Shown here: in pieces, positions 35,269-49,152 of the stretch
Layout: every line of letters starts with the position of its first letter
Position numbering within the stretch: position 1 is the stretch's first letter
Source: an uncultured Nitrospiraceae bacterium
Lineage (GTDB): Bacteria > UBA10199 > SBBF01
NCBI GenBank assembly: GCA_964592255.1
Contig: CAZQCI010000001.1
Location: 15,885-79,884 of the forward strand
Length of the DNA stretch: 64,000 nucleotides
Reading direction: 5' to 3'
Translations under genes and position numbers: made by a program
The notes under the pieces: model-generated
Told to the model about the DNA's origin: nothing
Databases searched by the model: none
Seen by the model: only the letters and a program-made list of their open reading frames with translations

Positions 35269-35637
35269 ATGGCGGATGCTAAAACCATTCTTGTTGTAGA
35301 AGATGAATATTTTTTGGCCGAATCTATCAAAGATCGTTTGGAATACTTAGGCTACCAAGTTTTACTGGCAGAACATGGTGAAGCCGCTCTTGAATTATTA
35401 AAAGAAAAAAAATGCAATTTGATTCTCTTAGACATCATCATGCCCGTTTTAGATGGCTGGGATACCCTCAAAGCCATTCGACAAAATTCTCAACTCAAAA
35501 ACTTGCCTGTCATTATGGTTTCAGCCAGAGCTACGGATCAAGACAAAGAAAAATCTCTGGCCTACGGAGCCAATGATCACCTGAACAAACCTTTCTCTTG
35601 GGATGATATGGCAGCCCTCATTAAAAAACACCTATGA
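35269..35637 (+). CDS. Stand-alone response-regulator receiver domain (CheY-like), first gene of the Pel-like operon
   Basis: Acidic pocket VVEDE. Phospho-acceptor D in LILLDIIMP. Conserved S (MVSA) and K (NKPF). 122 aa with no output domain. GGAG RBS. ATGA overlap with the next gene. Confidence 0.8.
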   Translation: MADAKTILVVEDEYFLAESIKDRLEYLGYQVLLAEHGEAALELLKEKKCNLILLDIIMPVLDGWDTLKAIRQNSQLKNLPVIMVSARATDQDKEKSLAYGANDHLNKPFSWDDMAALIKKHL

Positions 35638-36449
35638 GACAATGGCTTCTTGTTTTATGCCTGCTTTTCCTCACATCGTGTTCTTCACGTCTGCATTGGG
35701 TTATTTATTATGGATCCACACCGCCTAGTACACCGCTCAAAAAAGTCGATTGGGCTATTTTAGAACCAGACAATCTCCAGCCTTCTTCACTTAAAAATCC
35801 GAAAATTAAAACGTTAGGTTACATCAGCTTGGGTGAAATTAATAGCTCCCGTTCTTATTGGCCCAAAATTCAAAACTCTTCTTTTATTGTAGAAGAAAAC
35901 CCCAACTGGCCTGGAGCTTACCGTGTAGATATTCGCTCGACGGACTGGCAAGACTTATTGATCCAACAAATTCTTCCTTCCATATTAAATCAAGGATTTG
36001 ATGGTTTTTTCTTAGACACAGTAGATACAGCACTGTATCTGCAAGAAAAAGATCCCGTAAAATATTCACATTCTCAAGAAGCCATGGTGAATTTTATTAA
36101 GAAAATACGTGCTTCTTTTCCCAAAGCCCTCATTGTTCCCAATAATGGTCTCGAAATGCTGCCGGAAATCGGAAAAAATATCGACGCCATATTGGTAGAA
36201 GACCTTTATACCCGTTATGACTTCAACAACAAAACTGTCATCGCCACTCCAACTGAAGTAAGTCTAACCAAGGAAAAAATGTTGGATAAATTTACACACG
36301 ATTTCCACAAGCCCGTATTGGCTTTACTCTATGAAAATTCCACTAATACCCCTCTCACAAAACATGCTATAAGTAAGTGTAAAGAAAAGGATTATAGCTG
36401 GGCTGTCACAACAGTGGATCTGATGCACTGGAACGTGCCTACCCATTAG
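35634..36449 (+). CDS. Lipoprotein TIM-barrel glycoside hydrolase of the GH114/GH166 type (PelA hydrolase-domain-like)
   Basis: Lipobox FLTSCSS. Motif GFDGFFLDTVD is typical of the GH114/TM1410-like endo-alpha-1,4-hexosaminidase fold. 271 aa. 6-nt gap to the next gene. Confidence 0.55.
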   Translation: MRQWLLVLCLLFLTSCSSRLHWVIYYGSTPPSTPLKKVDWAILEPDNLQPSSLKNPKIKTLGYISLGEINSSRSYWPKIQNSSFIVEENPNWPGAYRVDIRSTDWQDLLIQQILPSILNQGFDGFFLDTVDTALYLQEKDPVKYSHSQEAMVNFIKKIRASFPKALIVPNNGLEMLPEIGKNIDAILVEDLYTRYDFNNKTVIATPTEVSLTKEKMLDKFTHDFHKPVLALLYENSTNTPLTKHAISKCKEKDYSWAVTTVDLMHWNVPTH

Positions 36450-36455
36450 CCATTT

Positions 36456-38525
36456 TTGAAAAATTTTATTCAACAATTGATTATTGTATTTTCTCTGTTG
36501 CTCCCTGCTCTTTCGGGTTTAGCAGCCTCTCAAGAGCCTCTTTCACGGAAAGTATTAGCGCTTTATGAATCCAGCGTTTATTCAGATCCAGCCTCTACAC
36601 TCATTCATCGGACGGCAGAACTCACATTAAACTATTTGGGCCTACAAGTGGAATACCGCCCCGTGGAAAGCCCCCTTCCTTCTGATGATGACATGCAGCC
36701 TTACATAGGCTTCATCACTTGGTTTACCAATGAAAATGCCGTCCCCCATCCGGATCTTTACTGTCAATGGATGCGCCATCAGATTCAAACAGGAAAAAAA
36801 ATAGTTCTCTTAGAAAACTGGGGATTGTTTCAAGACAAAAAACGTCATCTCAGCCCCATATGTGAAGACACTTTTAAAAAATTGGGAATAGAATACAAAG
36901 GGGAATACGCCGACAACCCCTACTTTTTAGAAGTAGCGGAACAAAAAACAGAATGGGTAGAATTTGAACGAAAAATTAATTTTACCGAAAACCTCACTTA
37001 CAGTTGGTTTAAAGCCATTGATCCCCAAAGTACCGTCTACCTTAAAGTTCGTAGAACGGACATGGTGAATAGTGAATCAGACATGGTTGTCACCACCCCT
37101 CAAGGTGGCTTTGTAGCACCAACCTGGCTCATCTATAACGACACAGAAACGAATCATATTCAATGGCGTGTTAATCCTTTTTTATTTTTTGAAAAAGCGT
37201 TTGACGTACCAGACTGGCCGCGCCCCGATACAACAACTTTAAATGGAAACCGAATTTTTTATAGCCACATTGATGGTGATGGCATTTTTAATATTTCTAA
37301 AATTGATCAAAAATCATTTTCTGGAGAAGTGATCTTAAATGAAATTTTAAAGCAATACCCCTCACTCCCTATCACACTCGGCCTCATCACAGGCTACATG
37401 GACTTGAAGGAATTCAACAATCCACGCACTCAAAAGCTGTACCGCGAGATGATAGAATTGCCGCAAGTAGAAATTGCCTCGCATGGCTATGCCCATCCTT
37501 TGGTTTGGAAAACAGGAGAACTGTCTTTAAAAATTCCAGATTACAACATGAATGCCGAAAAAGAAATCAACGGATCTATTCAGCAACTCAACCAAATGAT
37601 TGAGTCTTTAGGAATCACGTATAAAAAAACCTCTCTCTTTCAATGGACAGGAGACTGCACCCCTTCCGCCATACAAATTAAAATGGCAGAACAAACGGGG
37701 TTACCTAATCTTAATGGAGGTGGTGGGCGCCAAGATGACAATTTCTATGGTTTAGCGGCCCTCTACCCCATCGGCATTACAAAAGAAGGCGCCCATCAAA
37801 TTTATGCCGGGGCTTTTAACGAAAATAATTTCACCAATCTGTGGAGCGGCCCTTATTATGGGTTTGCCCACTTACTCTCCACATTGGACAAAACCGAAAA
37901 CCCTCTACGCCTTAAAGCCGTAGATGTTTATTATCATTTTTACAGTGGGGAACGTTGGGCTTCACTAAAAGCTGTGAAAAAAATTTATGATTCCTTTTTA
38001 AACAAAAATATCTTCCCCATTCATGCCAGCCAATACGCCAGAATTGCTGAAGGATTTTACACAACTGAAATTAAGCGCATTGCCAGTGGTCATTTTGTCG
38101 TTAGTAAAAATGGAGTCTTACAAACCATTCGTTTTGACCATGAAAAAAGAAATCTAGACCTCTCTCAATCGACAGGTGTTCTAGGTTTTATTCACGATAA
38201 AAATGCCCTGTATGTTTCATTAGATGAATCGGAAAACCACGTCATTCAACTATCAGAGGCTCAGCCCTCTTCTCCTTACTTAATTCAATCTACTTTTCAG
38301 GTTTCGCAACTAACAAAAAAAGTGGAGGGCTTTTCGTTTCAAAAACAAGGATGGTTAAAAAGTCATTGCCTTTGGGGAGGGCTAAGACCCAACCACAGTT
38401 ACCGAGTCATAACACAAGATGAAACTCAACGATTAACAACTTCTTCAACAGGGGAATTGAAAATAGACTTTCAAAAAAGTGAAAATGGATTAACCCCCGT
38501 CTTAGTAAGGGTTGAAGCAGAATAA
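36456..38525 (+). CDS. Periplasmic polysaccharide deacetylase (CE4/NodB-homology) multidomain protein, equivalent to the C-terminal two-thirds of PelA
   Basis: Signal peptide MKNFIQQLIIVFSLLLPALSGLAA. CE4 motifs FYSHIDGDG (MT1-like) and EIASHGYAHP (HxxxHP, MT2). 689 aa. Overlaps the PelB-like gene. Confidence 0.6.
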   Translation: MKNFIQQLIIVFSLLLPALSGLAASQEPLSRKVLALYESSVYSDPASTLIHRTAELTLNYLGLQVEYRPVESPLPSDDDMQPYIGFITWFTNENAVPHPDLYCQWMRHQIQTGKKIVLLENWGLFQDKKRHLSPICEDTFKKLGIEYKGEYADNPYFLEVAEQKTEWVEFERKINFTENLTYSWFKAIDPQSTVYLKVRRTDMVNSESDMVVTTPQGGFVAPTWLIYNDTETNHIQWRVNPFLFFEKAFDVPDWPRPDTTTLNGNRIFYSHIDGDGIFNISKIDQKSFSGEVILNEILKQYPSLPITLGLITGYMDLKEFNNPRTQKLYREMIELPQVEIASHGYAHPLVWKTGELSLKIPDYNMNAEKEINGSIQQLNQMIESLGITYKKTSLFQWTGDCTPSAIQIKMAEQTGLPNLNGGGGRQDDNFYGLAALYPIGITKEGAHQIYAGAFNENNFTNLWSGPYYGFAHLLSTLDKTENPLRLKAVDVYYHFYSGERWASLKAVKKIYDSFLNKNIFPIHASQYARIAEGFYTTEIKRIASGHFVVSKNGVLQTIRFDHEKRNLDLSQSTGVLGFIHDKNALYVSLDESENHVIQLSEAQPSSPYLIQSTFQVSQLTKKVEGFSFQKQGWLKSHCLWGGLRPNHSYRVITQDETQRLTTSSTGELKIDFQKSENGLTPVLVRVEAE

Positions 38526-41499
38526 AATGAATTACTCACGGACTCAAATTATTATCTTCTTTATCGCCATTGTGGTTCTAGGATGGCTTTTATACCCGCG
38601 TACGCTTTTTCTTGGATTTATTTATGAAGGCTCAGCTTCATTAGAAAAATCAGAAAATTATTATCAACAGTATTTGGCTAAAAAACCTTTCAACCGCTTT
38701 GCCACATTACGTTTGGTCGATATCTACGAACGTATGGGGGAACCTGAAAAAGCCACTCCTCTCTATACCAATCTCTATTCCCATCGCCTTCACGATTGGG
38801 ATTTGGCTCAAAAATATTTAAAGCATTTAGAAAACAAAGGCGACTTTGAAGCCGCCTATAAACTAAGACAAGAAATAGCCCATAACTTTTTTGACGAAAA
38901 AAATATCCCACGAGAAAAAATTCAAGATCTGCTGACGCAAGCATTTAAATATGCTCAATGGAAACAAAAAACGGAAGAGGCTTATCAGCTCTTACAAAAA
39001 ATAGCGGATATTTCAAAAAATCCAGACGCCACTCTTCAAACCCTACATTGGCTCGATTTAGGCCTGAAACATACCGATAAAATCATCGCACGGCTCAAAA
39101 AACAATTGGCTGAAAACCCACATGATAAAAATAGTCGCCGTGAACTTATTTCTGTCCAAATGGCATCTAAAAACTTTGAAGAAGCTTACCAAACTATTGA
39201 CGAGGGATTAACGCAAGATCCGCGTGACACGACTTTACTCAAACAACGTATTCAACTTGATGCAATAACTGGAAAATCGGAAATAGAAATCAAAGATACG
39301 CTCAAAATACTCAATCTGGCGACATTATCTTCAGAGGAGACAATCTATTTCAAGCTACACTTAGTATTTTTGTATCAAAAAATAGGACGTCTGGAAGAAG
39401 CGCTCCCTCTTTTTGAAGAACTCACAAAGACCAACCCTAAAAATAAGGACATTTGGAAAAACTGGGCTTTTGTCTTAACACAGGATCAAAAAATAGATGC
39501 GGCTCTCAAGGTATTGGAAAAAAGTCGGTTTTATTTTCCTGATGATCTGGACTTAGAAGAACAACAAGTCTCTCTTCTTCTCTACCAGAAAAAAGACACC
39601 TCTTCCGTTGCTTTGTATGACGATTTTCTAAAGAAAAAACCCAAACCTTCTTTTGCCTTAGACGTGGCCTATCTTCTACTGGATCAAAAAGAAAAAAACA
39701 AAGCCCAAAACTGGTTAAACCGTGCATTAAAACTATTCCCCGAAAATGATAAACTCATCTTTTTGCTAGCGGATGTGAATGTTGAATTAGGTTTGCTTGA
39801 AGATGCTGATTTTTTGCTCACTTCTTATCTAAAAAAACACCCAAACAATTCTACAGCTCATTTAAAAACCGCTCATTTAGCAGCTATACGCTTTCAATTT
39901 GCCGCGTTAGAGCAACATTTACAGCAATACTTAAGCCTTGAAAAAAATAAGTTCCAATCTCTCATCGCAGCCGGACAAGAATATTTGTTCGCAGGCCTTA
40001 ATTCACAAGCGCAAAACTATTTCCAAAAAGCCCGTGACCAAAACCCGAAAGACCCGACTCCCTGGTTTTGGCTATCTGCAGCTTATTGGAGTCAAAACTC
40101 AAAAAAGTCCTCACAACAATCAGCCCATCAGGCAAGTCTCCTTTTCTCTAAAAAGAAAAGTAATACTACTTGGGAACGATTAAGCCTTAAAGCTCAAGCA
40201 ATGGCTCGTTTTGATGAAGACATACGCCAAAAATATAAAAAAGCCTTGGAGCGCCATCCAAAAGATTTTGATTTTTACGCTGACTTTGCGGACGTGCTTC
40301 TTATGGAACAAGAAAACACCTTGGCTGCCGAAATTATTAAAACAATCGAGCAAAAATTTTCACAAAGACCAGAGGATGTCATTTCTCTTAAAGTGCGTTT
40401 AGCTCAACAGCAACACGATTGGAAAGAAGTGATTGATTTACTTAATAATCACCCAAAACCTTATTTAAGAGACACAAAAACTTTGGCGGAAGCTTACGCC
40501 GCCAATGGGCAATGGAAAAAAGCCATGGACTATTATCAGCAATTATCCTCATCCTCCGATGAGGAAGCTCAGAAAAAACTAGGTTTAACCGAGGAAGCAG
40601 CCAAACTCCATGCCGAATATGATCATCGCATTGGTCAAAACTTTCATTATCTGGATTTAGGAAACGATACCATCATTGAAGAGGGAATTTTCACTAAACA
40701 TTACTTAAATGAATCACTCAAGATAACGGGTGAATTTGTCTGGGGGCACTATCAATCCCCCGGAATTGATTTTGAGGGAAACGCAGAATATGGTAGGATC
40801 CTTCTTTCAAAACAATGGGGGCCCCAATGGCAACTTGAAGGAGGTCTGGGGTTTGGGGTGAGTGAGCAACATGAAACAGTGTCACCTTTATTAGGAATAC
40901 GCTACAAACCTTGGGAGAAACTTTTATTGGAAATGCAAGGAAGTCTTCGGGAATTAAGAACGGATCTTCCCCAATCGGTAGCCCGGGGCGCACTAAAAAG
41001 CCAAGTGTCTTTTCAGTGGAATTGGCAAGCTACTTCCCGTTTTAATTTTTCCGGCACTTATCGTCTGGGAAAAAATAGCTTAAGCGGAGGAGAAAAAGCT
41101 TGGGAACAAAGTTTTGAACCGTCGCTTTCGTTTCTATTGCTGCGCCAACCCGATGTATTTATAGGCTACCAGTTCAGCCTGGTTCATGTAGATGACAATG
41201 ACGGTTTTTTAAGAAAACTCCCCTTGCTACCCGATGTGAGGGCGCATTATTTAACAGCTGGGTTTAATCATCCCATCACCCCAACCTTTAAGGTGGCAAG
41301 TGGCTTTTTTCTGGGTGAAGACACGGCAAGAAACCTTCATTTTTTTGAAGGCGATTTATGGGGGGCCAATGCCTCCTTTGTGTGGAACCTCACCTCATGG
41401 TTAGATATGACAGGTTTTTATAGTTACGGCAGAGAAACTCTCACTGAAAGCGCCGGTCAGAGCCATAATCTCAACTTCGGCTTTTCAGGACATTGGTAA
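38512..41499 (+). CDS. pelB: PelB-like outer-membrane export protein: N-terminal TM anchor, long TPR array, C-terminal beta-barrel porin
   Basis: TM IIIFFIAIVVLGWLLYP. About 700 aa of TPR-like helical repeats. C-terminal region of alternating amphipathic beta strands ending …NLNFGFSGHW (aromatic terminus typical of OM barrels). Alternative start ATG 38527. Confidence 0.7.
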   Translation: MKQNKMNYSRTQIIIFFIAIVVLGWLLYPRTLFLGFIYEGSASLEKSENYYQQYLAKKPFNRFATLRLVDIYERMGEPEKATPLYTNLYSHRLHDWDLAQKYLKHLENKGDFEAAYKLRQEIAHNFFDEKNIPREKIQDLLTQAFKYAQWKQKTEEAYQLLQKIADISKNPDATLQTLHWLDLGLKHTDKIIARLKKQLAENPHDKNSRRELISVQMASKNFEEAYQTIDEGLTQDPRDTTLLKQRIQLDAITGKSEIEIKDTLKILNLATLSSEETIYFKLHLVFLYQKIGRLEEALPLFEELTKTNPKNKDIWKNWAFVLTQDQKIDAALKVLEKSRFYFPDDLDLEEQQVSLLLYQKKDTSSVALYDDFLKKKPKPSFALDVAYLLLDQKEKNKAQNWLNRALKLFPENDKLIFLLADVNVELGLLEDADFLLTSYLKKHPNNSTAHLKTAHLAAIRFQFAALEQHLQQYLSLEKNKFQSLIAAGQEYLFAGLNSQAQNYFQKARDQNPKDPTPWFWLSAAYWSQNSKKSSQQSAHQASLLFSKKKSNTTWERLSLKAQAMARFDEDIRQKYKKALERHPKDFDFYADFADVLLMEQENTLAAEIIKTIEQKFSQRPEDVISLKVRLAQQQHDWKEVIDLLNNHPKPYLRDTKTLAEAYAANGQWKKAMDYYQQLSSSSDEEAQKKLGLTEEAAKLHAEYDHRIGQNFHYLDLGNDTIIEEGIFTKHYLNESLKITGEFVWGHYQSPGIDFEGNAEYGRILLSKQWGPQWQLEGGLGFGVSEQHETVSPLLGIRYKPWEKLLLEMQGSLRELRTDLPQSVARGALKSQVSFQWNWQATSRFNFSGTYRLGKNSLSGGEKAWEQSFEPSLSFLLLRQPDVFIGYQFSLVHVDDNDGFLRKLPLLPDVRAHYLTAGFNHPITPTFKVASGFFLGEDTARNLHFFEGDLWGANASFVWNLTSWLDMTGFYSYGRETLTESAGQSHNLNFGFSGHW

Positions 41500-41503
41500 A
41501 GAT

Positions 41504-41869
41504 ATGGGAAAAAAAATATTGTTAATCGACGATGAAGTAGATTTTACTGAAGTGGTGGGCACCTTGCTGCGTTTTCATGATTTCGACGTAGACACTATCA
41601 ATGAGCCTCTTCTAGCTCCTGAAGCTATTAATAAAAATAATTATGATCTCATTGTTAGCGATTTGATGATGCCCGATATCAACGGCTTTGAATTGGTCGA
41701 GAAGATTAGGACCATGCCGCGCTACAAAGACACCCCAATCATTACCTTGTCGGCAAAACTCCTTAACGATGAAGAAAGAAAACAATTGCTCCATCATGGT
41801 GTTCATTGTTTATCTAAACCATTCGAGCCCAGTGGATTGGTAGATCAAATTTGTCAATTACTTGGCTAA
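41504..41869 (+). CDS. Second stand-alone CheY-like receiver domain, between the pelB- and pelD-like genes
   Basis: LLIDDE acidic pocket. D in DLIVSDLMMP. S in ITLSAK. K in LSKPF. 121 aa, no output domain. The start lies 4 nt after the pelB stop. Confidence 0.8.
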   Translation: MGKKILLIDDEVDFTEVVGTLLRFHDFDVDTINEPLLAPEAINKNNYDLIVSDLMMPDINGFELVEKIRTMPRYKDTPIITLSAKLLNDEERKQLLHHGVHCLSKPFEPSGLVDQICQLLG

Positions 41870-41905
41870 AGACCGTCTCTTCTTTTGTCATAAAAAGACA
41901 AAAGA

Positions 41906-43294
41906 ATGAGTAGGGAGAAAATTTCGGATTTGAAACGATACTCTTATTTGTACGAAATTCCTCTTTTTTACTTGGTTTTATGTGGAATCAATTTCTACCT
42001 GGTGCCGGAATATCCTTCTTTTTTTGGCATTGATCCCCATCCTTATTGGTTAGGCATTGTATTATTTGCCTTCCGGTATGGATTAGTCCCCTCACTCATC
42101 TCAGGCGTGTTATCAGCCCTATTATTTTTATTCGGAATATTCTTATTTGGAGAACGCTATCTTTTTGAAGACGCCGTTTTCTTCCTTCTACCCTCTTTCT
42201 TCATCATTGTTTCAACTTGCCTAGGTTTCTTAACACGCCAAACACATAAAAAAATAATCCAATTCCAAGACGCCGAAATAAGCGCCAGTCAAAAGGAAAA
42301 ACATTTAAACGAAGAAATAAAAACCCTAACCGAAATTAATAATAACCTTGAAAAAAGAATAGTCACTCGTATGTCAACCTTGGTGACTTTATATGAAGGA
42401 GCCAGGAGGCTTGAAACTCACGATATCGAAGAGCTTTACAAATCAGGCTTGGACTTTATCACTAAAACATTAGGAGCCGATGAAGCAGCCATTTATCTTA
42501 AACAAAACAATGAATGGCATTTAAAAGAAAGCATTGGCTGGAAAGAGTACGAAAAGCATCCAAAAATATTAAAATGGTCCGAGGGCCTAACCGGACTTGC
42601 AGGATCTACGAATAAGATTGTCAGCATTCGTGATTTTATGGGTCACAGCCCTAAAGAACTCCCTAATATATTTAGCGACGCACTAGTAGCCGCTCCTTTA
42701 CGCTTAGGGGAGCATGGCAAAGTCATCGGTGTAATTGCCATTCAACGAATGCCTTTTTTAAGTTTCACTAGCTCTTCAGTCAACCTCTTCTCTTTTCTCA
42801 TGAACTGGATTTCACGTTCCGTAGGAGAAGCTTCGTATATTCAAGAGTTAAAAGAACAAGAAATTATCGATCCAGAACTTCAGGTATATTCTCATTCTTA
42901 TTTTTTATCTCGTGCACGGCAAGAATTCTTACGATCAAAAAACTATTATTTACCTCTTGGGCTTGGAGTTGTCTCCTTCGATCAAACCACTCCTTTATCT
43001 GCCAAAGAAAATAAACGCCTTCTCTTAGCCATAGCCCAGCTCCTTAAACAAAACATACGTGAAATGGATGTGGTTGCACGCTTTCCTTCTTCAGAACACC
43101 CTTTTTCTATTCTCTTCATCACAGCTAGCCCTAAACAAACCGAAGAGATGACTGAAAAAATAACGCATGCTTACCAGGAATTAAAATTAGTCGATGCTAA
43201 AGGTAAGCCCCTGCCTCTTATTAAAATTAAATTGTCTCATTTTTCCCCACAAGTGGCCGATATCGATCAAATGCTTCGAGAGGCTCTCATATGA
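41906..43294 (+). CDS. pelD: PelD-like inner-membrane c-di-GMP receptor (4 TM + GAF + degenerate GGDEF)
   Basis: Four N-terminal TM helices. GAF-like region (LGADEAAIYLKQNNEWHL…VIGVIAIQRMPF). C-terminal degenerate cyclase-like domain. An RxxD (REMD) lies five residues upstream of where a degenerate GG(D/E)EF would sit (ARFPS…). ATGA overlap with the next gene. Confidence 0.6.
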   Translation: MSREKISDLKRYSYLYEIPLFYLVLCGINFYLVPEYPSFFGIDPHPYWLGIVLFAFRYGLVPSLISGVLSALLFLFGIFLFGERYLFEDAVFFLLPSFFIIVSTCLGFLTRQTHKKIIQFQDAEISASQKEKHLNEEIKTLTEINNNLEKRIVTRMSTLVTLYEGARRLETHDIEELYKSGLDFITKTLGADEAAIYLKQNNEWHLKESIGWKEYEKHPKILKWSEGLTGLAGSTNKIVSIRDFMGHSPKELPNIFSDALVAAPLRLGEHGKVIGVIAIQRMPFLSFTSSSVNLFSFLMNWISRSVGEASYIQELKEQEIIDPELQVYSHSYFLSRARQEFLRSKNYYLPLGLGVVSFDQTTPLSAKENKRLLLAIAQLLKQNIREMDVVARFPSSEHPFSILFITASPKQTEEMTEKITHAYQELKLVDAKGKPLPLIKIKLSHFSPQVADIDQMLREALI

Positions 43295-44328
43295 TGCATG
43301 CACGATTCATGTTTTTTTGGGGTTTAAGTGGTCTCTGTGAGTTTCCGTTTCTCCAAACTCTATTAGGTTTTCCTTATTTTTTTAAAGGGCACACTCCCTT
43401 TGTGGTCTTACTGCATGTGACGGGATCCGTATTGCTCTTTTTTTGTGTCCCCAAAGGAGAAGGCTGGTTTCATCCGGCACGCATGGGCGCAAAAACCTTT
43501 TTCTACATGGGGCTTTTTTTGCCGTTTGTAGGATGGATCATTTCCGGAATCTTATACATTCATTTCATCAAAGAAAAAGACAAACCCTATACTATAAACC
43601 AGGAAGATGATGATAATTTTTTCATGGACTCATTTCCTTCTTTATCCCTTTCTATTCAGCTTCCACGGCGAAATCGTCTTCAAAAACAATTGGATTTTAT
43701 TCCTTTAGTAGACATCATCCGAGGACCGGAAGAGATAGAGCTTAAACGTGGAGCTATCGAAAAACTTGCTCAAATTAATACCCCAGAAACAATCGACCTA
43801 CTTTTCTCTCTACGTAGCGATCCAGTCATGGAAGTGCGTTTCTATGCTACGTCTGCTTTGGGAAAAATCAAAAAAGAATTTGATGAACGTCTTGATGCTG
43901 CCAAAGAAGAAATAAAAAAAACAAGCCCCAGCAGTAAGGCACGACTCAACTTAGCTCAGGCTTACTTAGAATATGCCCAATCTCATCTTTTGGATAAAGT
44001 AACAACTTCCGCCTACGAAACAGAAGCTCTGTTTCACTTGCAGGAAGAGCTCAACAACCCCTTCCCTTCCCTACAAGCCTTTTGGATGCTCATTGATTTA
44101 TACAAAAATCATCGTCGATGGGAGCAAGCATTAGATTTACTAGAAAAATTGGAGCACCACCCGGAAACAGAAATTATTTTAGTTTTAAAAAGTAAAATTG
44201 AAATTATTTATTTGATGCAACGCTATCAAGAAATACCGGTTTTATTAGAAAAACTGACTCAAAAAAATAAATTACCAGACGAATGGACCGCTCTAGCACA
44301 ATGGTGGGGGGCCCATGTTGAACATTAA
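43291..44328 (+). CDS. pelE: PelE-like inner-membrane protein (N-terminal TM helices plus HEAT/TPR-like helical repeats)
   Basis: Hydrophobic N-terminal 100 aa. Helical repeats follow (PETIDLLFSLRSDPVMEVRFYATSALGKI; LNLAQAYLEYAQSH). Position between pelD and pelF. 345 aa. Confidence 0.5.
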   Translation: MMHARFMFFWGLSGLCEFPFLQTLLGFPYFFKGHTPFVVLLHVTGSVLLFFCVPKGEGWFHPARMGAKTFFYMGLFLPFVGWIISGILYIHFIKEKDKPYTINQEDDDNFFMDSFPSLSLSIQLPRRNRLQKQLDFIPLVDIIRGPEEIELKRGAIEKLAQINTPETIDLLFSLRSDPVMEVRFYATSALGKIKKEFDERLDAAKEEIKKTSPSSKARLNLAQAYLEYAQSHLLDKVTTSAYETEALFHLQEELNNPFPSLQAFWMLIDLYKNHRRWEQALDLLEKLEHHPETEIILVLKSKIEIIYLMQRYQEIPVLLEKLTQKNKLPDEWTALAQWWGAHVEH

Positions 44329-46279
44329 AAAAATTAAAGAACTCATTCATGGACCCAGTGAAGACGGTCGATTTGAAGCCTTTTTAGAGCTCTTTGAATC
44401 GGAAGATCCCAAAGCTTTGGAGGAAATACATCATATACTCACATCTCCCGACCCAGTGATTAAAATTAAATTCTTGCGCTTCTTATCACACGCAGAATCA
44501 GAAAAATCTTTGCCATTAATTGTTACATGCTTAAAAGATAAAAATCCCATCGTCATCAACGTGGCTCGAAAGGTTTTTGAAAAAAATACTTTTCCTTTAA
44601 AGTTTCGAAGCCTTCTTCCATTTCTCAACGCCCCTCACGATGATTTATTTACTTATGCGGTAAAAGCGTTAGCTCAGGCGGGTATCACCGAAATTATTGA
44701 ACCTTTATTTGAACAGCTAAAAAGAGTGGGGGAAGAAAGGCAGCTGATTATTTTATCGGTTTTACGTTGGCTTCCCGAAGAAAGAATGATTCCTGTTCTC
44801 CTGTCTTATCTTAAATCAAAAAATGACAATATCCGCTATAAAACTTTAATGGTCTTTGGAAGTCTATTGAGTGCAGGCCATAGTTCGGCACGCAAACATC
44901 TACTTCCCTCTCTCAAGGATAACAATGCCTCAATTCGGCAAGCTGTTTTATGGTGTTTAAAAAGAGCCCCTTCAAAAAAAGATTATTCAATTTTTTTAAA
45001 TTACTCACAAAAAGATCCAGATCCTTTAGTCAGACAAGAAGCTCTAATAGGGCTGAGTACTTTTCCCCCACGAAAAATTATTTTGCCTATTCTTTCTCTC
45101 ATGGCGACTGAAAAATCACGCATGGTTTTATTGAAAGGAGAAGGACTTCTTTTGGGAATAAACATTCAAGATCTGGAATCCGAGTTAAGTAAAGCGCTTC
45201 AATCCAAAAATACCAAAATTAGAGAAAGAGCCCAACTGTTAATGTCGGAATTAGGACGCAATTCGGAAAGTTTTTGTAAAAAATTACTCGAAAAAGCCAT
45301 GCGGATCAAATCACCTAAAGAAAGACTCACTTTAATTGAAGCACTAGGCAATACACAAAGTCACAATGCCATTGCCTGGCTGGAAACCCTGCTCAACACA
45401 GATCCCTTAACATCCTATGCAGCTATTTCGGCCTTGTTAAAAATTTGGGGCGAAAACCCACAACAACCCATTCTTAAATATTTACAACATCAAAAATCAG
45501 CCATTACCCGCCAAAACGTACTCAAGCATCTGGTTAAAAAAAATATCCCTTTGAAAAGCAATACTGATTTAGAAAAATATCTGATGGGTCTTTTAGAAGA
45601 CGCCAATTTAAATATTCGATATCTAGCAACTCAAGCCTTGCTCAAGATCAACAGCTCAATGCTGCTACACCCCTTAATGAAAACATTACTTAACGAGTCT
45701 GACCCCACAACTTTTCAACTTTTGCGACAAAGTATTTTATCTTTACTAGCAAAAAACCCCCAATTAATCGGTCCAATGTTAAAATTGTATTATCAAGACA
45801 GTAAGGCTCTTCATACTTTAATCAACCTGATGAGTGAAATCGACTTGGAAGGATCTCATTCTTTAGAACTATTAATCATTCTCTTATCCCCACCTTTCAT
45901 GCTGGATAACTCGCCTTTGCTTCAAGAAGCGGTCCGTTTCATCCTCATCCAATATCTTCAAGATAAAATTCGCTTAGAAGATGTGGTTGAAAGCGTATCT
46001 ACTATTCCACAACGGGATTTGATTTTTGATTGTTTATATACTCAACTAGAAAATCAATCTAGCTCTATGCGCCCTATTTTTTCTAAATCTAAAATTGAAA
46101 CCTGGCTTCATAACGACTGCCTGCTCTCCCCTTCCTTATTACGGCTACTCGCTTTAAGTCAGGATGAAAAATTAATCGCTGTATTAGTTCAATTCACATC
46201 ACAAAAACCTTTAGCACCATACAAAGCAGAATTGATCCATACTCTTAATCGGATGATTTGGCAGGAGGCCTGCTCATGA
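44315..46279 (+). CDS. Large HEAT-repeat (PBS-lyase-type HEAT-like) protein embedded in the Pel-like operon
   Basis: 654 aa. More than 10 repeats of about 30 aa with the pattern D/NPxVRxxAxxALxxIG (e.g. DPVIKIKFLRFLS, NASIRQAVLWCLKRAP, DPLVRQEALIGLS, NLNIRYLATQALLKI). No TM or signal. Overlaps both neighbours (14 and 22 nt). Confidence 0.6.
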   Translation: MLNIKKIKELIHGPSEDGRFEAFLELFESEDPKALEEIHHILTSPDPVIKIKFLRFLSHAESEKSLPLIVTCLKDKNPIVINVARKVFEKNTFPLKFRSLLPFLNAPHDDLFTYAVKALAQAGITEIIEPLFEQLKRVGEERQLIILSVLRWLPEERMIPVLLSYLKSKNDNIRYKTLMVFGSLLSAGHSSARKHLLPSLKDNNASIRQAVLWCLKRAPSKKDYSIFLNYSQKDPDPLVRQEALIGLSTFPPRKIILPILSLMATEKSRMVLLKGEGLLLGINIQDLESELSKALQSKNTKIRERAQLLMSELGRNSESFCKKLLEKAMRIKSPKERLTLIEALGNTQSHNAIAWLETLLNTDPLTSYAAISALLKIWGENPQQPILKYLQHQKSAITRQNVLKHLVKKNIPLKSNTDLEKYLMGLLEDANLNIRYLATQALLKINSSMLLHPLMKTLLNESDPTTFQLLRQSILSLLAKNPQLIGPMLKLYYQDSKALHTLINLMSEIDLEGSHSLELLIILLSPPFMLDNSPLLQEAVRFILIQYLQDKIRLEDVVESVSTIPQRDLIFDCLYTQLENQSSSMRPIFSKSKIETWLHNDCLLSPSLLRLLALSQDEKLIAVLVQFTSQKPLAPYKAELIHTLNRMIWQEACS

Positions 46280-47736
46280 TCGACGTATGCCTCCTCTTAG
46301 AAGGAACCTATCCTTATGTCGCTGGAGGAGTATCCACGTGGGTTCATCAACTTATTTCTTCCATCAAAGATTTACGCTTTGGTATTTTATTCATTGCACC
46401 TTATTCAGACCCTACACGCACTCTAAAATATGAAGTACCCAACCATGTGCTCTATCTGAAAGAAATTTATTTACACGACTACAACTTAGAATTACGACCC
46501 AAAAGAAAACCAACCTCACAAGACTATGAACTGATTAAAAAATTTTATGAAAATGTTCAAAAAGAGGATTTCAAGTTATTTGCTAACTTTGTTCGCCTCT
46601 TCCAAGGAGAAAACTCATGTTTCGGCATCCAAAATCTTTTTAATTCGGAGCAAACCTGGGATTTGCTTACTTATTTTTACGAACGATATGCGGGTGATAT
46701 TTCTTTCATTGATTATTTTTGGACTTGGCGAGGTACCCATTTACCCTTGATGCAAATGCTCACTGCAGAAATTCCACGAGCTAAAATTTACCATGCCGTC
46801 TCAACCGGTTATGCAGGTCTTATTGGAGCCATTGCTAAACAATTCAATCAAGGAAAGTTTTTTTTAACAGAACACGGGCTCTATACTCACGAGCGCATGC
46901 TAGAAATCTCACAAGCCTCTTGGATTTATGAACAGAAAAAAAGAGATTTCAAAGCCGAAAAAGGATTTTCTTTTTTTAAGCAATGGTGGATTACCATTTT
47001 TGATACTCTCAGTCGTTTAGCCTACGATTCAGCCGACAATATTTATACTCTATTTGAAGGCAACAAAAGACGGCAAATTTTACAAGGCGCACAAGCCGAT
47101 AAAATCACAGTCATCCCTAACGGCATTGATGTTATCGCCTTTGAAAAAATTGAGCGGAGTAAAAAAACACACCCACAAATAGGTCTTATTGGACGAGTTG
47201 TCACAATTAAAGATATCAAAACATATATTCAAGCAGCCCGTATTGTTCTTCAAAAGTTACCGACAGCCTCTTTTTACATCATTGGCCCTACGGATGAAGA
47301 GCAAGAATATTTTGAAGAATGTAAAATGATGGTGGAAGCCCTGCACATGGAAAATAATATTATCTTCACGGGGCGAGTAGACCCAAAAACCTATTATGCG
47401 TTTCTGGACTTAGTAGTCCTTACCAGTATTTCAGAAGCCCAACCTTATGTCATTTTAGAAGCCAATGCCGTAGGCATACCGGTAGTAGCCAGCGATGTGG
47501 GGGCTTGCCGAGAAATGCTGGAAGGAAGCAGTTCTTTGGATCGGACCTTAGGAGTGAGTGGTAAAATCACAGAAGTATCCAACCCTGACGATACAGCTAA
47601 AGCCATTGTAGAGATTATGACCAACGAAACCCTGTATCGGCATATGAGCCAAACGGGAAAACAAAGAGTGAAACAATATTATGACGATCGTGATTTGATC
47701 AGCAAATACATAAATATTTACGAAAAAAACTTATAA
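46258..47736 (+). CDS. pelF: PelF-like cytoplasmic GT4 glycosyltransferase with an N-terminal DUF3492-type domain
   Basis: N-terminus MIDVCLLLEGTYPYVAGGVSTWVHQLI matches the PelF/DUF3492 start. C-terminal GT4 region (EAQPYVILEANAVGIPVVASDVGACREML). Confidence 0.8.
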   Translation: MAGGLLMIDVCLLLEGTYPYVAGGVSTWVHQLISSIKDLRFGILFIAPYSDPTRTLKYEVPNHVLYLKEIYLHDYNLELRPKRKPTSQDYELIKKFYENVQKEDFKLFANFVRLFQGENSCFGIQNLFNSEQTWDLLTYFYERYAGDISFIDYFWTWRGTHLPLMQMLTAEIPRAKIYHAVSTGYAGLIGAIAKQFNQGKFFLTEHGLYTHERMLEISQASWIYEQKKRDFKAEKGFSFFKQWWITIFDTLSRLAYDSADNIYTLFEGNKRRQILQGAQADKITVIPNGIDVIAFEKIERSKKTHPQIGLIGRVVTIKDIKTYIQAARIVLQKLPTASFYIIGPTDEEQEYFEECKMMVEALHMENNIIFTGRVDPKTYYAFLDLVVLTSISEAQPYVILEANAVGIPVVASDVGACREMLEGSSSLDRTLGVSGKITEVSNPDDTAKAIVEIMTNETLYRHMSQTGKQRVKQYYDDRDLISKYINIYEKNL

Positions 47737-47745
47737 CTTATTCTT

Positions 47746-49152
47746 ATGGCTGGCATTGGCTTCAGATTACAAAAACTTCTTGCGGGTGAGTCCTACACTG
47801 ACTTGATACGGGCTTACTTATACTCTTCTGTTATCACTTCAGGACCTATGATCATCGTCATGATCACTTTAATGCTGACTAACTCTCTCATTAGTCATAA
47901 CCTAGATTTAGAAGCAGCTAAAAATATACTCCCACTCATCATTTACGTTTATGCTTTTTCCATGGTTGGCGTAGGGCCTTTTGTCTATGTCGTCACCAGA
48001 AATATTGCAGATAAATATTATTTGAAAGAAATAGAATCTTTCACTCCCATTTACTTTGCAACATTGGAAATTGTATTTATATCTCAAACTTTACTCGCCT
48101 TGCCTTTTCTTGTCTTTTCTTCTTTTGATTTCACCACTAAATGGGTCGTACTTTGTCTCTATCTTCTAGTAAGCGGAATTTGGGTAGCCATGCTTTTTCT
48201 TTCTGCCGCCAGAAGTTACTTGTGGATTGTAGGAGGCTTTATTTTTGGAGGCCTAGCCGGGCTAGCCTTTTCCTGGTTTTTAAGTCGGATAGAGGGGCCT
48301 CTTGGTTTTATTAAGGGCTATACGCTAGGCCAAGGAGTCACTTTTTTAATTTTATGCCTGCGTATTTTTAAAGAGTTCGGTTATCGCTTTAACCATGATT
48401 ATGGTTTTCTACTTTATTTCAAACGTTACAATTCTTTGGCCTGGGTTGGTTTTTTTTATTATGCCGGTATCTGGGTCGATAAATTTATATTTTGGTTTTT
48501 TGGACCCGAAAGCAACATGGTTCATGGTTTAAAAATTTATAATAATTATGACACCCCTCTTTTCTTATCATTCATCAGTGTCATTCCTTCCATGGCTTTT
48601 TTTCTCATTCAAATGGAAACCAACTTTGTACGGCATTACCATTCTTACTACAAAGCCATACGCGAGCGTGGTTCCCTGCTTCTCATCAGAGAAAAAAAGA
48701 AAAAAATCATCGAAACTCTCAGCCAGCATTTTCAAAAATTTGCCATTCTACAGGGGCTTTTTACAGCCGTAATCATCCTATTTATTGTTCCATTATCTGA
48801 AGCCCTTGGGCTTAACCCTTATCAAGTAGGCATTCTACGGATCAGCCTGTTAGGATCTTACTTACTCATGGGTTATGTGATGGTACTTAATATTTTATTT
48901 TATTTTGAACTACAAAAAGAAGCGTTTTGGATTTCTGCCATTTTCTTTTTCGGAAATGCCCTCTTTACTTTTGCCACTTTAAAAATTGGATTTGCCTCTT
49001 ACGGTTTTGGATATACTTTAGCCTCTTTTGTAAGTGTCATGGTAGGCTTTATCGTATTAAATCGTCGGTTAGAAAAACTGAACTGCTTAACCTTTATGAA
49101 TCAACCTATTTTAGTCCCTCAGTTTAAATTAGAAAATGAAGAGCAAAACTAA
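47746..49152 (+). CDS. pelG: PelG-like polysaccharide exporter (MATE/MOP-like, 12 TM)
   Basis: N-terminus MAGIGFRLQKLLAGESYTDLIRAYLYSSVITSGPMI resembles the conserved PelG start. 468 aa, polytopic. Confidence 0.7.
   Translation: MAGIGFRLQKLLAGESYTDLIRAYLYSSVITSGPMIIVMITLMLTNSLISHNLDLEAAKNILPLIIYVYAFSMVGVGPFVYVVTRNIADKYYLKEIESFTPIYFATLEIVFISQTLLALPFLVFSSFDFTTKWVVLCLYLLVSGIWVAMLFLSAARSYLWIVGGFIFGGLAGLAFSWFLSRIEGPLGFIKGYTLGQGVTFLILCLRIFKEFGYRFNHDYGFLLYFKRYNSLAWVGFFYYAGIWVDKFIFWFFGPESNMVHGLKIYNNYDTPLFLSFISVIPSMAFFLIQMETNFVRHYHSYYKAIRERGSLLLIREKKKKIIETLSQHFQKFAILQGLFTAVIILFIVPLSEALGLNPYQVGILRISLLGSYLLMGYVMVLNILFYFELQKEAFWISAIFFFGNALFTFATLKIGFASYGFGYTLASFVSVMVGFIVLNRRLEKLNCLTFMNQPILVPQFKLENEEQN

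What the first reader, a model, noticed from the sequence alone, without database searches (positions are those of the whole stretch)
44315..46279. 654-aa HEAT-repeat (PBS-lyase-like) protein translationally coupled between pelE- and pelF-like genes
Canonical pel operons have nothing between pelE and pelF. Here a soluble all-alpha HEAT-like repeat protein with more than 10 repeats overlaps both neighbours, which implies stoichiometric co-expression.
The PelE-like protein also carries a HEAT/TPR-like helical repeat. A cytoplasmic scaffold linking PelD/E to the PelF glycosyltransferase is a plausible but untested role.
Basis: partly seen in the sequence, partly recalled or inferred. Interest (0 to 1): 0.55.

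Follow-up and report, generated by a model that had tools for sequence, protein, structure and literature searches.

The report
Conserved HEAT scaffold gene in pel operon
A 654-residue all-helical HEAT-repeat protein is a real, conserved extra gene between pelE and pelF in a variant Pel biofilm-polysaccharide operon found in at least six mostly uncultured phyla, and it nearly always travels with a small receiver gene, which points to an undescribed cytoplasmic scaffold or regulatory add-on to the Pel synthase.

Summary
ORF 44315-46279 (+) encodes a 654-aa soluble protein that scores strongly as HEAT_2 (124.7 bits, cutoff 27.7). AlphaFold models it with high confidence (pLDDT 88.6) as about 20 helical hairpins with no other domain. 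It overlaps pelE by 14 nt and pelF by 4 nt (ATGA).

It is not a one-off. A collinear ~650-aa orthologue sits between pelE and pelF in 38 non-redundant loci. Their record titles name six phylum-level groups: 'Deltaproteobacteria' MAGs, Lindowbacteria, Omnitrophota, Auribacterota, Elusimicrobia and Planctomycetota. The 4-nt overlap with pelF recurs in 26 of 42 loci.

The gene co-occurs almost perfectly with a stand-alone receiver gene inserted between pelB and pelD. By the automated count that is 24 of 26 HEAT-positive loci and 0 of 22 HEAT-negative loci.

All structural neighbours are non-catalytic scaffolds. The best reading is a cytoplasmic scaffold subunit of the PelDEFG synthase that docks PelF, probably working with the receiver. 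No interaction has been shown.

Searches of the paper library found no description of it. I rate it a new variant of a known system, of moderate interest.

The parts
35269..35637 (+). Stand-alone receiver (RR0) at the head of the operon; overlaps the next gene by 4 nt.
   Evidence: Pfam Response_reg 100 bits. Also present at the head of some loci that lack the HEAT gene (L026, L029), so it is not specific to the variant.
35634..36449 (+). PelA hydrolase part (GH114-type), encoded as a separate gene.
   Evidence: Pfam Glyco_hydro_114 77 bits. Fused to the next gene in L002 (966 aa).
36456..38525 (+). PelA C-terminal (deacetylase-region) homologue, 689 aa.
   Evidence: Conserved in pel loci of many phyla (300-700 bits by phmmer). 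Only a weak Pfam GH57 hit. Deacetylase identity is inferred from position and homology to PelA-like ORFs.
38512..41499 (+). PelB-like TPR protein, 995 aa, with a presumed porin-like C-terminal region.
   Evidence: Many TPR families, e.g. TPR_19 at 118 bits. The porin part was not tested with a model.
41504..41869 (+). Stand-alone receiver (RR1) inserted between pelB and pelD; the co-occurring partner gene of the HEAT gene.
   Evidence: Pfam Response_reg 73.6 bits. The acidic pocket DD, phospho-acceptor Asp, Ser and Lys are all present. Found in 24 of 26 HEAT-positive loci and 0 of 22 HEAT-negative loci by the automated count. Manual inspection of L027 and L053 brings this to 26 of 27.
41906..43294 (+). 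PelD-like c-di-GMP receptor: TM segments, GAF, degenerate GGDEF.
   Evidence: GAF_3 38 bits and GGDEF 22 bits. The RxxD I-site is kept (REMD) and followed by a degenerate PSSEH. Four hydrophobic segments.
43291..44328 (+). PelE-like membrane protein with a HEAT_2 plus TPR soluble domain.
   Evidence: HEAT_2 33.7 bits and weak TPR_14. At least 2 TM segments. The same architecture occurs in PelE of HEAT-negative loci.
44315..46279 (+). The finding: a 654-aa soluble HEAT-repeat solenoid of about 20 hairpins. The most conserved patch lies on the B helices of hairpins 11-14 (aa ~340-440).
46263..46268 (+). AGGAGG Shine-Dalgarno sequence for pelF, lying inside the 3' end of the HEAT gene.
   Evidence: Read directly from the sequence. 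It sits 7 nt upstream of ATG 46276.
46276..47736 (+). PelF GT4 glycosyltransferase; its start overlaps the HEAT stop codon (ATGA).
   Evidence: NCBIfam PelF NF038011 497.5 bits; DUF3492 276.8 bits; Glycos_transf_1.
47746..49152 (+). PelG inner-membrane protein.
   Evidence: Pfam PelG PF16933 403.9 bits.

Best explanation
The gene encodes a non-catalytic, cytoplasmic alpha-solenoid that serves as an extra subunit of a variant Pel synthase.

Background from published work on Pseudomonas aeruginosa: the membrane proteins PelD, PelE and PelG recruit the soluble glycosyltransferase PelF to the membrane, and purified soluble PelF is inactive (review PMC8461298).

Proposed mechanism, all inferred:
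- In this variant, a ~75-kDa HEAT solenoid is made in step with PelE and PelF through translational coupling.
- It acts as the docking platform that holds PelF against the PelD/E/G membrane module. The conserved inner (B-helix) face of repeats 11-14 is the likely contact surface.
- The small receiver protein RR1, which is almost always co-inherited, is a second accessory subunit acting on the same platform. Where its phospho-acceptor Asp is intact, as in this window, it would add a phosphorylation input alongside c-di-GMP sensing by PelD.

What is shown here: gene reality, fold, lack of a catalytic domain, cytoplasmic nature, dedicated and conserved placement in pel operons, coupling to pelF, and co-occurrence with RR1.

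What is inferred: every physical contact and the direction of regulation.
For: Fold and localisation:
- HEAT_2 124.7 bits. AlphaFold pLDDT 88.6, 40 helices, no other domain.
- No TM segment or signal peptide. Median family pI is 8.9.

Dedicated to pel:
- The only end-to-end relatives sit between pelE and pelF.
- The next-best HEAT proteins lie in unrelated contexts.
- 38 non-redundant HEAT-positive loci carry six phylum-level labels.
- Length stays at 628-712 aa although identity falls to about 15%.

Coupling:
- The HEAT stop overlaps the pelF ATG by 4 nt in 26 of 42 loci, and by 1-11 nt in 7 more. HEAT starts overlap or abut the pelE stop.

Co-occurrence with RR1:
- Counts are 24/2/0/22 (HEAT+RR+, HEAT+RR-, HEAT-RR+, HEAT-RR-); Fisher p=2e-11, not corrected for phylogeny.
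- One of the two apparent exceptions (L053) in fact carries a degenerate receiver.

Conservation pattern:
- B helices of hairpins 1-14 are more conserved than A helices.
- The conserved polar residues R19, R208, R240, E342, Y368, Q400, N433, R435 and Y436 all lie on B helices.

Co-divergence:
- HEAT distances track PelF best (r=0.92, partial r=0.59), though they are saturated.

Precedents:
- The PelDEG complex recruits soluble PelF (PMC8461298).
- A single-domain response regulator binding a HEAT protein is known from Myxococcus xanthus CheY7-Cpc7 (PMC11514114).
Against: - No direct evidence of any protein-protein contact.
- No natural fusion of the HEAT protein to PelE, PelF or the receiver in about 38 loci.
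- Canonical Pel systems work without such a protein, so it cannot be part of the core mechanism.
- The protein evolves faster than every other operon product, and its C-terminal third is poorly conserved.
- B-helix conservation is partly explained by the structural HEAT signature itself.
- The link to the receiver is correlative and confounded by shared ancestry: HEAT-positive PelFs cluster in the NJ tree.
- One locus (L015) has the HEAT gene without a receiver.
- In five loci the receiver has lost its phospho-acceptor Asp.
- No histidine kinase is consistently linked.
Confidence: 0.55

Rival explanations
1. Primarily a signal adaptor. The HEAT protein is the output partner of the operon's single-domain receiver. 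Phosphorylated or unphosphorylated RR1 binds the solenoid, which then releases or activates PelF. Its essential job would be to gate Pel synthesis, with no structural role in the complex.
For: - Near-perfect co-occurrence of the HEAT gene and RR1.
- RR1 in this window has all the phospho-acceptor residues.
- The CheY7-Cpc7 precedent (PMC11514114).
- Histidine kinases lie a few genes downstream of pelG in two Omnitrophota loci.
- HEAT proteins occur in other two-component or chemotaxis contexts, e.g. P0036 between cheB and cheR.
Against: - The receivers in L011, L016, L053, L057 and L066 lack the phospho-acceptor Asp, yet the HEAT gene is retained.
- L015 has the HEAT gene without a receiver.
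- The HEAT gene is coupled to pelE and pelF, not to RR1, which lies two genes upstream.
- No kinase is found in the window.
Confidence: 0.3
2. An assembly factor or chaperone. The solenoid transiently stabilises newly made PelF, or the PelE cytoplasmic domain, and hands it to the membrane complex. It would not be part of the mature synthase.
For: - The tight ATGA coupling to pelF would place the protein next to nascent PelF.
- Purified PelF is soluble but inactive (PMC8461298).
- Some HEAT/ARM proteins act as chaperones, e.g. the HspBP1 and TBCD hits.
- Rapid sequence drift.
Against: - Translational coupling implies roughly stoichiometric, not catalytic, amounts.
- PelF differs little between HEAT-positive and HEAT-negative loci, with only E63 and W237 as class-specific residues and no indels. 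There is therefore no obvious extra folding burden.
Confidence: 0.15
3. A recruitment platform for something other than PelF. Candidates are a nucleotide-sugar enzyme (a UDP-GlcNAc 4-epimerase like PelX), the anionic membrane surface, or the nascent polymer.
For: - Basic median pI of 8.9.
- A long solenoid has room for several ligands.
- Accessory genes for precursor supply are known in some pel operons (PelX; from my own knowledge, not checked here).
Against: - No epimerase or other enzyme gene is consistently linked in HEAT-positive loci.
- Pel is cationic and is made at the membrane, so a basic cytoplasmic protein is a poor polymer binder.
- Gene position and coupling point to PelE and PelF.
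Confidence: 0.07
4. A bilin-lyase-type (CpcE/F, NblB) enzyme, or a functionally unrelated hitchhiker gene that merely happens to lie in the operon.
For: - The repeat class is the prokaryotic PBS-lyase/alphaRep type.
- Weak NblB (38.6 bits) and HEAT_PBS (19.6 bits) hits.
Against: - Both hits fall below the curated cutoffs (300 and 20.9).
- No phycobilisome genes are nearby.
- Position, length and overlap with pelF are conserved across six phylum-level groups, which does not fit a hitchhiker.
Confidence: 0.02

Closest known systems
PelDEFG inner-membrane synthase complex of Pseudomonas aeruginosa (pelABCDEFG)
   Same: - PelD (GAF, degenerate GGDEF, RxxD I-site), PelE (TM plus helical repeats), PelF (GT4 with DUF3492) and PelG are all present in the same order.
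- In the established model the PelDEG complex recruits soluble PelF (PMC8461298).
   Different: - Two additional soluble proteins are encoded inside the operon: a ~650-aa HEAT solenoid between pelE and pelF, and a stand-alone receiver between pelB and pelD.
- pelC is absent and pelA is split.
Gram-positive pelDEA(DA)FG operon (Bacillus cereus)
   Same: A pel operon variant that also has a gene between pelE and pelF (PMC7112168).
   Different: That gene is a membrane-anchored extracytoplasmic deacetylase, i.e. an enzyme. Here it is a cytoplasmic non-catalytic solenoid, and the deacetylase-region gene lies upstream (36456-38525).
CheY7-Cpc7 of Myxococcus xanthus (single-domain response regulator binding a HEAT-repeat protein)
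   Same: A single-domain receiver and an all-helical HEAT protein are encoded in one gene cluster, and a physical receiver-HEAT interaction provides the pathway output (Darnell 2014, as summarised in PMC11514114).
   Different: - Cpc7 belongs to a chemosensory cluster that controls development, not to a polysaccharide synthase.
- Homology to Cpc7 was not tested because no sequence was available.
- Some receivers here are phosphorylation-dead.
Cytosolic accessory subunits of the E. coli-type cellulose synthase (BcsE, BcsQ, BcsR, BcsF)
   Same: Concept only: extra cytoplasmic, non-catalytic proteins that assemble on a synthase-dependent exopolysaccharide machine and tune it (from my own knowledge; the review PMC8892547 was listed but not read).
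   Different: - Different folds: GIL/receiver-like and ParA/MinD ATPase against a HEAT solenoid.
- A different synthase.
- No homology is claimed or tested.
Eukaryotic enzyme-docking HEAT scaffolds (PP2A A subunit, symplekin, INTS4) and artificial alphaRep proteins
   Different: Only generic fold similarity, at 10-20% identity and low global TM scores (0.3-0.4). There is no evolutionary or functional link.
PBS-lyase HEAT-like proteins (CpcE/CpcF, NblB) and YibA
   Different: - Two to three times longer.
- Fails the curated NblB and HEAT_PBS cutoffs.
- No phycobiliprotein context.

Membership tests
HEAT-repeat proteins (Pfam HEAT_2, PF13646; clan of alpha-solenoids) | Sequence score above the curated gathering threshold. 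| tested here: met
   124.7 bits against 27.7, in 5 stretches. PF02985 HEAT scores 63.2 against 23.5.
HEAT-repeat proteins (Pfam HEAT_2, PF13646; clan of alpha-solenoids) | Tandem helix-turn-helix hairpins stacked into a solenoid. | tested here: met
PBS-lyase HEAT-like / NblB / CpcE-F bilin lyases | Score above the curated family thresholds (Pfam HEAT_PBS; NCBIfam NblB equivalog). | tested here: not met
   HEAT_PBS 19.6 bits against 20.9. NF045915 NblB 38.6 bits against 300.
PBS-lyase HEAT-like / NblB / CpcE-F bilin lyases | Genomic association with phycobiliprotein genes. | tested here: not met
   The window and all related loci show pel genes on both sides and no phycobilisome genes.
Pel biosynthesis operon | PelF GT4 glycosyltransferase (DUF3492 plus Glycos_transf_1). 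| tested here: met
   NF038011 497.5 bits against 100. PF11997 276.8 bits.
Pel biosynthesis operon | PelG membrane protein adjacent to pelF. | tested here: met
   PF16933 403.9 bits against 29, over the full profile length.
Pel biosynthesis operon | PelD: TM, GAF and degenerate GGDEF with an RxxD I-site. | tested here: met
   GAF_3 38.3 bits and GGDEF 22.1 bits (just below its cutoff). REMD motif followed by degenerate PSSEH. Four hydrophobic segments. c-di-GMP binding itself cannot be tested here.
Pel biosynthesis operon | PelE membrane protein with a TPR-like domain; PelA hydrolase/deacetylase; PelB TPR-porin. | tested here: met
   PelE: at least 2 TM segments, HEAT_2 and TPR_14. GH114 77 bits. 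PelB has many TPR families. The porin and deacetylase parts are inferred from homology to pel loci.
Pel biosynthesis operon | PelC outer-membrane lipoprotein (canonical pelABCDEFG). | tested here: not met
   No gene lies between pelB and pelD other than the receiver. PelC is also absent from the non-proteobacterial HEAT-negative loci L078 and L068. No PelC model was run against the rest of the window.
Pel-associated HEAT protein family (defined here) | A ~650-aa protein aligning end-to-end with the family profile, encoded between pelE and pelF. | tested here: met
   The window protein scores 875 bits. Orthologues in 38 non-redundant loci all occupy that position. There are 85 full-length 50%-cluster representatives, whose genomic context could not be checked.
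CheY7-Cpc7-type receiver/HEAT signalling pair | A single-domain receiver encoded with the HEAT protein. | tested here: met
   RR1 at 41504-41869 in the same operon; co-occurrence counts 24/2/0/22.
CheY7-Cpc7-type receiver/HEAT signalling pair | Direct, phosphorylation-dependent binding of the receiver to the HEAT protein. | not testable with these tools
   This needs a binding assay or complex prediction.
CheY7-Cpc7-type receiver/HEAT signalling pair | Sequence homology of the HEAT protein to Cpc7 beyond generic repeats. | not tested

The most novel reading that the evidence does not exclude
The HEAT solenoid and the co-inherited receiver together form a previously unrecognised control module bolted onto a synthase-dependent exopolysaccharide machine. 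The module would give Pel polymerisation a second, phosphorelay-type post-translational input in addition to c-di-GMP sensing by PelD. In some lineages it has become a fixed structural subunit through pseudo-receivers. It is widespread in uncultured phyla (Omnitrophota, Elusimicrobia, Planctomycetota, Lindowbacteria, Auribacterota) and absent from all studied model organisms.
Probability: 0.3. Interest if true: 0.7.

Novelty: new variant of a known kind. Interest (0 to 1): 0.5.

Why it matters
- How PelF is recruited and switched on by PelD, PelE and PelG is still unresolved. The review read here calls the activation mechanism unknown, and a 2026 preprint abstract says Pel synthesis and secretion are 'not understood'.
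- A natural variant carries two extra soluble subunits, one a large rigid scaffold coupled to PelF. This offers a handle for structural work, since it may stabilise the cytoplasmic face of the complex.
- It suggests that Pel synthesis can be wired to two-component signalling as well as to c-di-GMP.
- The surveys of pel loci that I checked do not mention this variant. Bundalovic-Torma 2020 covered 1,733 complete genomes and has no occurrence of 'HEAT' in its main text. Those surveys therefore under-sample the operon's diversity in uncultured phyla.
- If the scaffold turns out to be dispensable, the finding is a modest annotation improvement: 'HEAT repeat domain-containing protein' becomes 'Pel-associated HEAT protein'.

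Tried and rejected
1. Searching for relatives with an alignment through the degenerate-pattern tool failed because no stretch was conserved enough. I used PelF as the anchor instead.
2. The word-indexed protein search with the broad alignment A3 was swamped by generic HEAT proteins. Two of the best (P0010, P0036) lie in unrelated contexts, so such hits were not counted as family members.
3. A search with the Planctomycetota orthologue, made to find a cultured carrier, returned only the query itself.
4. I looked for Rosetta-stone fusions of the HEAT protein to PelE, PelF or the receiver. None was found in any locus.
5. I looked for systematic loss of the PelD I-site in the variant, which would mean the module replaces c-di-GMP control. 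This was rejected: RxxD is kept in most HEAT-positive loci where the region aligned (11 of 13 HEAT-positive sequences) and lost in L001 and in L053/L066.
6. I asked whether the HEAT segment of PelE marks the variant. This was rejected: it is general to PelE.
7. I asked whether the receiver replaces pelC. pelC is also missing from HEAT-negative non-proteobacterial loci.
8. PelF class-specific features gave only E63 and W237, with no indels. That is too little to define an interface.
9. The mirror-tree analysis gave the highest correlation with PelF, but HEAT distances are saturated, so it is not decisive.
10. The promoter and terminator scan found nothing above shuffled controls.
11. Rfam found no RNA family in the window.
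12. The afdb50 library was unavailable.
13. No histidine kinase lies next to the operon in the window. Kinases occur downstream in only two of the loci checked.
14. A linker-fused HEAT-PelF chimera for AlphaFold was considered but not submitted.


Full report
OBSERVATION

The ORF reported at 44315-46279 (+) exists exactly as described: ATG start, 654 codons. It overlaps the stop codon of the upstream pelE-like gene (TAA at 44326-44328) by 14 nt. A G-rich SD-like run at 44303-44311 precedes its ATG.

The mechanical ORF list starts pelF at TTG 46258. The ATG at 46276 is the better start. It aligns with residue 1 of PelF orthologues and is preceded by AGGAGG at 46263-46268. This gives the classic ATGA overlap with the HEAT stop codon.

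Pfam scores the protein as HEAT_2 at 124.7 bits against a cutoff of 27.7, in five stretches, and also as HEAT and HEAT_EZ. No enzymatic family appears in Pfam or NCBIfam.

AlphaFold2, run on an alignment of nine orthologues, gives a confident model (mean pLDDT 88.6, pTM 0.63). It has 40 helices, forming about 20 hairpins of 27-41 residues, and nothing else. The protein has no signal peptide and no hydrophobic segment near a transmembrane threshold.

SURROUNDINGS

The gene sits in a complete pel-type operon on the + strand:
- a stand-alone receiver, RR0 (35269-35637)
- a split PelA: GH114 hydrolase (35634-36449) and a 689-aa C-terminal part (36456-38525)
- PelB with many TPR families (38512-41499)
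- a second stand-alone receiver, RR1 (41504-41869)
- PelD with GAF, a degenerate GGDEF and an intact RxxD I-site, REMD (41906-43294)
- PelE with TM segments plus HEAT_2 and TPR (43291-44328)
- the HEAT gene
- PelF, NF038011 at 497.5 bits (46276-47736)
- PelG, PF16933 at 403.9 bits (47746-49152)

There is no pelC. A convergent rodA-PBP2-mreDCB cluster follows. No histidine kinase flanks the operon. Rfam finds nothing in the window, and promoter and terminator scans are at background.

IS IT CONSERVED?

A word-indexed search of 5.8 billion proteins found only eight clear orthologues. They are 650-662 aa long, 32-38% identical, with E from 1.7e-119 to 1.5e-75. The next hits drop sharply to generic HEAT proteins.

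Three orthologues with enough contig all lie in the same order: receiver, pelD, pelE, HEAT, pelF, pelG.

I then used PelF as an anchor. This fetched 27 loci from species-representative genomes and 80 from metagenomes. I scanned every stop-to-stop ORF with a profile of the HEAT family and with the window's Pel proteins.

A ~650-aa ORF that aligns collinearly with the profile lies directly between pelE and pelF in 38 non-redundant loci. That figure is 37 by the automated count plus L027, whose frameshifted pelF made the script miss it. The record titles place these loci in 'Deltaproteobacteria bacterium' MAGs (the window's own clade, PelF 54-66% identical), Candidatus Lindowbacteria, Omnitrophota, Auribacterota, Elusimicrobia and Planctomycetota.

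In 31 other loci, pelE abuts pelF as in the canonical operon. These include Caldithrix, SAR324, Methylomirabilia, Sumerlaeota and several Alphaproteobacteria.

Protein length is held at 628-712 aa even though identity to the window protein falls to about 15%.

An exhaustive HMMER scan of 1.84 billion cluster representatives found 361 proteins at E<=1e-30. Of the 150 best-scoring hits that the tool lists, 85 are single-stretch, end-to-end matches of 600-720 aa. Their genomic context could not be checked.

The best non-collinear HEAT hits lie in unrelated places: P0010 near recA and dnaG, and P0036 between cheB and cheR. The family boundary therefore coincides with pel linkage.

COUPLING

Of 42 loci where both ends could be read (some of them redundant):
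- the HEAT stop overlaps the pelF ATG by 4 nt in 26
- it overlaps by 1-11 nt in 7 more
- a spacer of 4-32 nt occurs in 9

HEAT starts likewise overlap or abut the pelE stop. No locus shows a fusion of the HEAT protein with PelE, PelF or a receiver.

A SECOND CO-INHERITED GENE

The stand-alone receiver between pelB and pelD tracks the HEAT gene. Among non-redundant loci where the region upstream of pelD is on the contig:

| | receiver present | receiver absent |
|---|---|---|
| HEAT present | 24 | 2 |
| HEAT absent | 0 | 22 |

Fisher p = 2e-11, not corrected for shared ancestry.

L027 is in fact positive for both genes, which the script missed because of a frameshift. One of the two exceptions (L053) carries a degenerate 134-aa receiver-like ORF at that position. 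Only L015 truly lacks a receiver.

The phospho-acceptor Asp of this receiver is intact in the window's clade and in many others. It is replaced by Asn or Ser in L011, L016, L053, L057 and L066. In part of the family the receiver is therefore a phosphorylation-dead structural protein.

PelD keeps its RxxD I-site in most HEAT-positive loci where that region aligned (11 of 13 HEAT-positive sequences). The module therefore adds to c-di-GMP control and does not replace it.

The HEAT_2+TPR architecture of PelE is also found in loci without the HEAT gene. pelC is also missing from HEAT-negative non-proteobacterial loci. Neither feature defines the variant.

WHAT THE FOLD SAYS

Foldseek against the PDB returns importin-beta/Kap95, CAND1, Kap121, SF3B1, the PP2A A subunit and artificial alphaRep proteins (E ~1e-7, TM 0.3-0.4).

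By sequence the closest solved chains are alphaRep designs, YibA, deoxyhypusine hydroxylase and CpcE. The repeat class is thus the prokaryotic ~31-residue 'PBS-lyase/alphaRep' HEAT-like repeat. The protein nevertheless fails the curated NblB (38.6 vs 300 bits) and HEAT_PBS (19.6 vs 20.9) thresholds and has no phycobilisome context.

All structural analogues are non-catalytic platforms that hold enzymes or cargo.

Across 114 family members:
- the second (B) helix of hairpins 1-14 is more conserved than the first
- hairpins 15-20 are poorly conserved
- the conserved polar residues R19, R208, R240, E342, Y368, Q400, N433, R435 and Y436 all lie on B helices
- the densest patch is in hairpins 11-14

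Part of this pattern reflects the structural HEAT signature, so it is only suggestive of a binding face.

The family is mostly basic, with a median pI of 8.9.

MECHANISM

Published work on Pseudomonas aeruginosa, as summarised in PMC8461298, shows that PelD, PelE and PelG form an inner-membrane complex that recruits the soluble GT4 enzyme PelF. Purified soluble PelF is inactive, and c-di-GMP binding to PelD does not change complex assembly.

Against that background, the most economical reading is that the HEAT solenoid is an additional cytoplasmic subunit that docks PelF to the membrane module, made stoichiometrically with PelE and PelF. The co-inherited receiver would be a second accessory subunit acting on the same platform.

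A receiver-HEAT partnership has a precedent in Myxococcus xanthus CheY7-Cpc7 (Darnell 2014, cited in PMC11514114).

A mirror-tree comparison shows that HEAT distances correlate best with those of PelF (r 0.92, partial r 0.59). The HEAT distances are saturated, so this is weak support. PelF shows only two class-specific residues, E63 and W237.

Every physical contact is inferred. Rival readings cannot be separated in silico with the tools available. They are a pure signalling adaptor for the receiver, a PelF assembly chaperone, and a platform for another ligand.

Bilin-lyase activity and a hitchhiker gene are effectively excluded.

NOVELTY

Full-text searches found no paper combining PelE, PelF and 'HEAT repeat', and no relevant paper among the 20 top-ranked of 98 holding PelF and HEAT. 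The systematic survey of pel operons (PMC7112194) has no occurrence of 'HEAT' in its main text. Public records call these proteins only 'HEAT repeat domain-containing protein'.

Known pel operon variants add enzymes, such as the deacetylase between pelE and pelF in Gram-positive bacteria (PMC7112168). None adds a scaffold-plus-receiver pair.

I therefore class this as a new variant of a known system. It is a solid, conserved, uncharacterised accessory module, of moderate interest. Its value lies mainly in making the open question of PelF recruitment and activation more tractable.

LIMITS

- All carriers found are MAGs or metagenomic contigs. No cultured carrier was found.
- Taxon labels are NCBI record titles.
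- HEAT-positive PelFs largely cluster in a rough NJ tree, so the co-occurrence statistics are inflated by shared descent.

Noticed in passing
window 41504-41869 (RR1) and 35269-35637 (RR0): The pel operon contains two stand-alone receiver genes. RR1, between pelB and pelD, co-occurs with the HEAT gene across phyla. RR0, at the operon head, also occurs in some HEAT-negative alphaproteobacterial loci (L026, L029).
   Followed up: yes
L011, L016, L053, L057, L066 (receiver ORF just upstream of pelD): In these loci the pel-embedded receiver has Asn or Ser in place of the phospho-acceptor Asp. These pseudo-receivers are retained together with the HEAT gene.
   Followed up: partly
window 35634-36449 and 36456-38525; L002 1245-4124: PelA is split into a GH114 hydrolase gene and a 689-aa C-terminal gene in the window. 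In the related locus L002 it is one 959-aa gene.
   Followed up: partly
window 38512-43294; L078 3618-8708; L068 2660-8903: No pelC gene lies between pelB and pelD, either in the window or in non-proteobacterial loci without the HEAT gene. In L068, PelB appears split into a TPR gene and a porin gene.
   Followed up: partly
L002 13495-14230 (-): A HEPN/nucleotidyltransferase (MNT-type) toxin-antitoxin pair is inserted between pelF and pelG in a relative of the window operon. L005 has an AbiEi/AbiEii pair just downstream of its pel genes.
   Followed up: no
L054 9875-12957 (also L045, L046, L052, L055, L058, L065, L074, L084, L086, L091): Orphan PelF homologues (46-48% identical) from a single metagenome sit right after secY, rpsD, rpoA and rplQ. 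In L054 (the only one scanned with Pfam) a receiver-histidine-kinase hybrid follows; seven others (L052, L055, L065, L074, L084, L086) have a receiver-like hit just downstream and L045, L046, L058 and L091 have none. No pelD, pelE or pelG lies nearby.
   Followed up: partly
L034 8001-9923: A 640-aa HEAT-repeat protein lies between cheB and cheR in Desulfovibrio sp. DV. This is another case of a HEAT solenoid embedded in a two-component or chemosensory cluster.
   Followed up: no
L027 ~10000-10320: The pelF of the Planctomycetota MAG is interrupted by a frameshift or assembly error; translation gives 4 stop codons.
   Followed up: no
window 46276-47736 (PelF residues E63, W237): Two PelF positions are conserved in loci with the HEAT gene (89% and 97%) and differ in loci without it. 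They are candidate contact residues, but the pattern is confounded by phylogeny.
   Followed up: partly
window 28270-28986 and 32844-34697: Upstream of the operon lie a protein with an NADase-translocation/F5-F8 type C domain and a 617-aa 'choice-of-anchor I' domain protein. Both are probably surface or secreted proteins.
   Followed up: no
L011 14170-16752; L013 7084-8589: Sensor histidine kinases (CHASE-PAS-HK, and a receiver-PAS-HK hybrid) lie a few genes downstream of pelG in two Omnitrophota loci that carry the HEAT gene. No such kinase is present in the window or in the other loci checked.
   Followed up: partly
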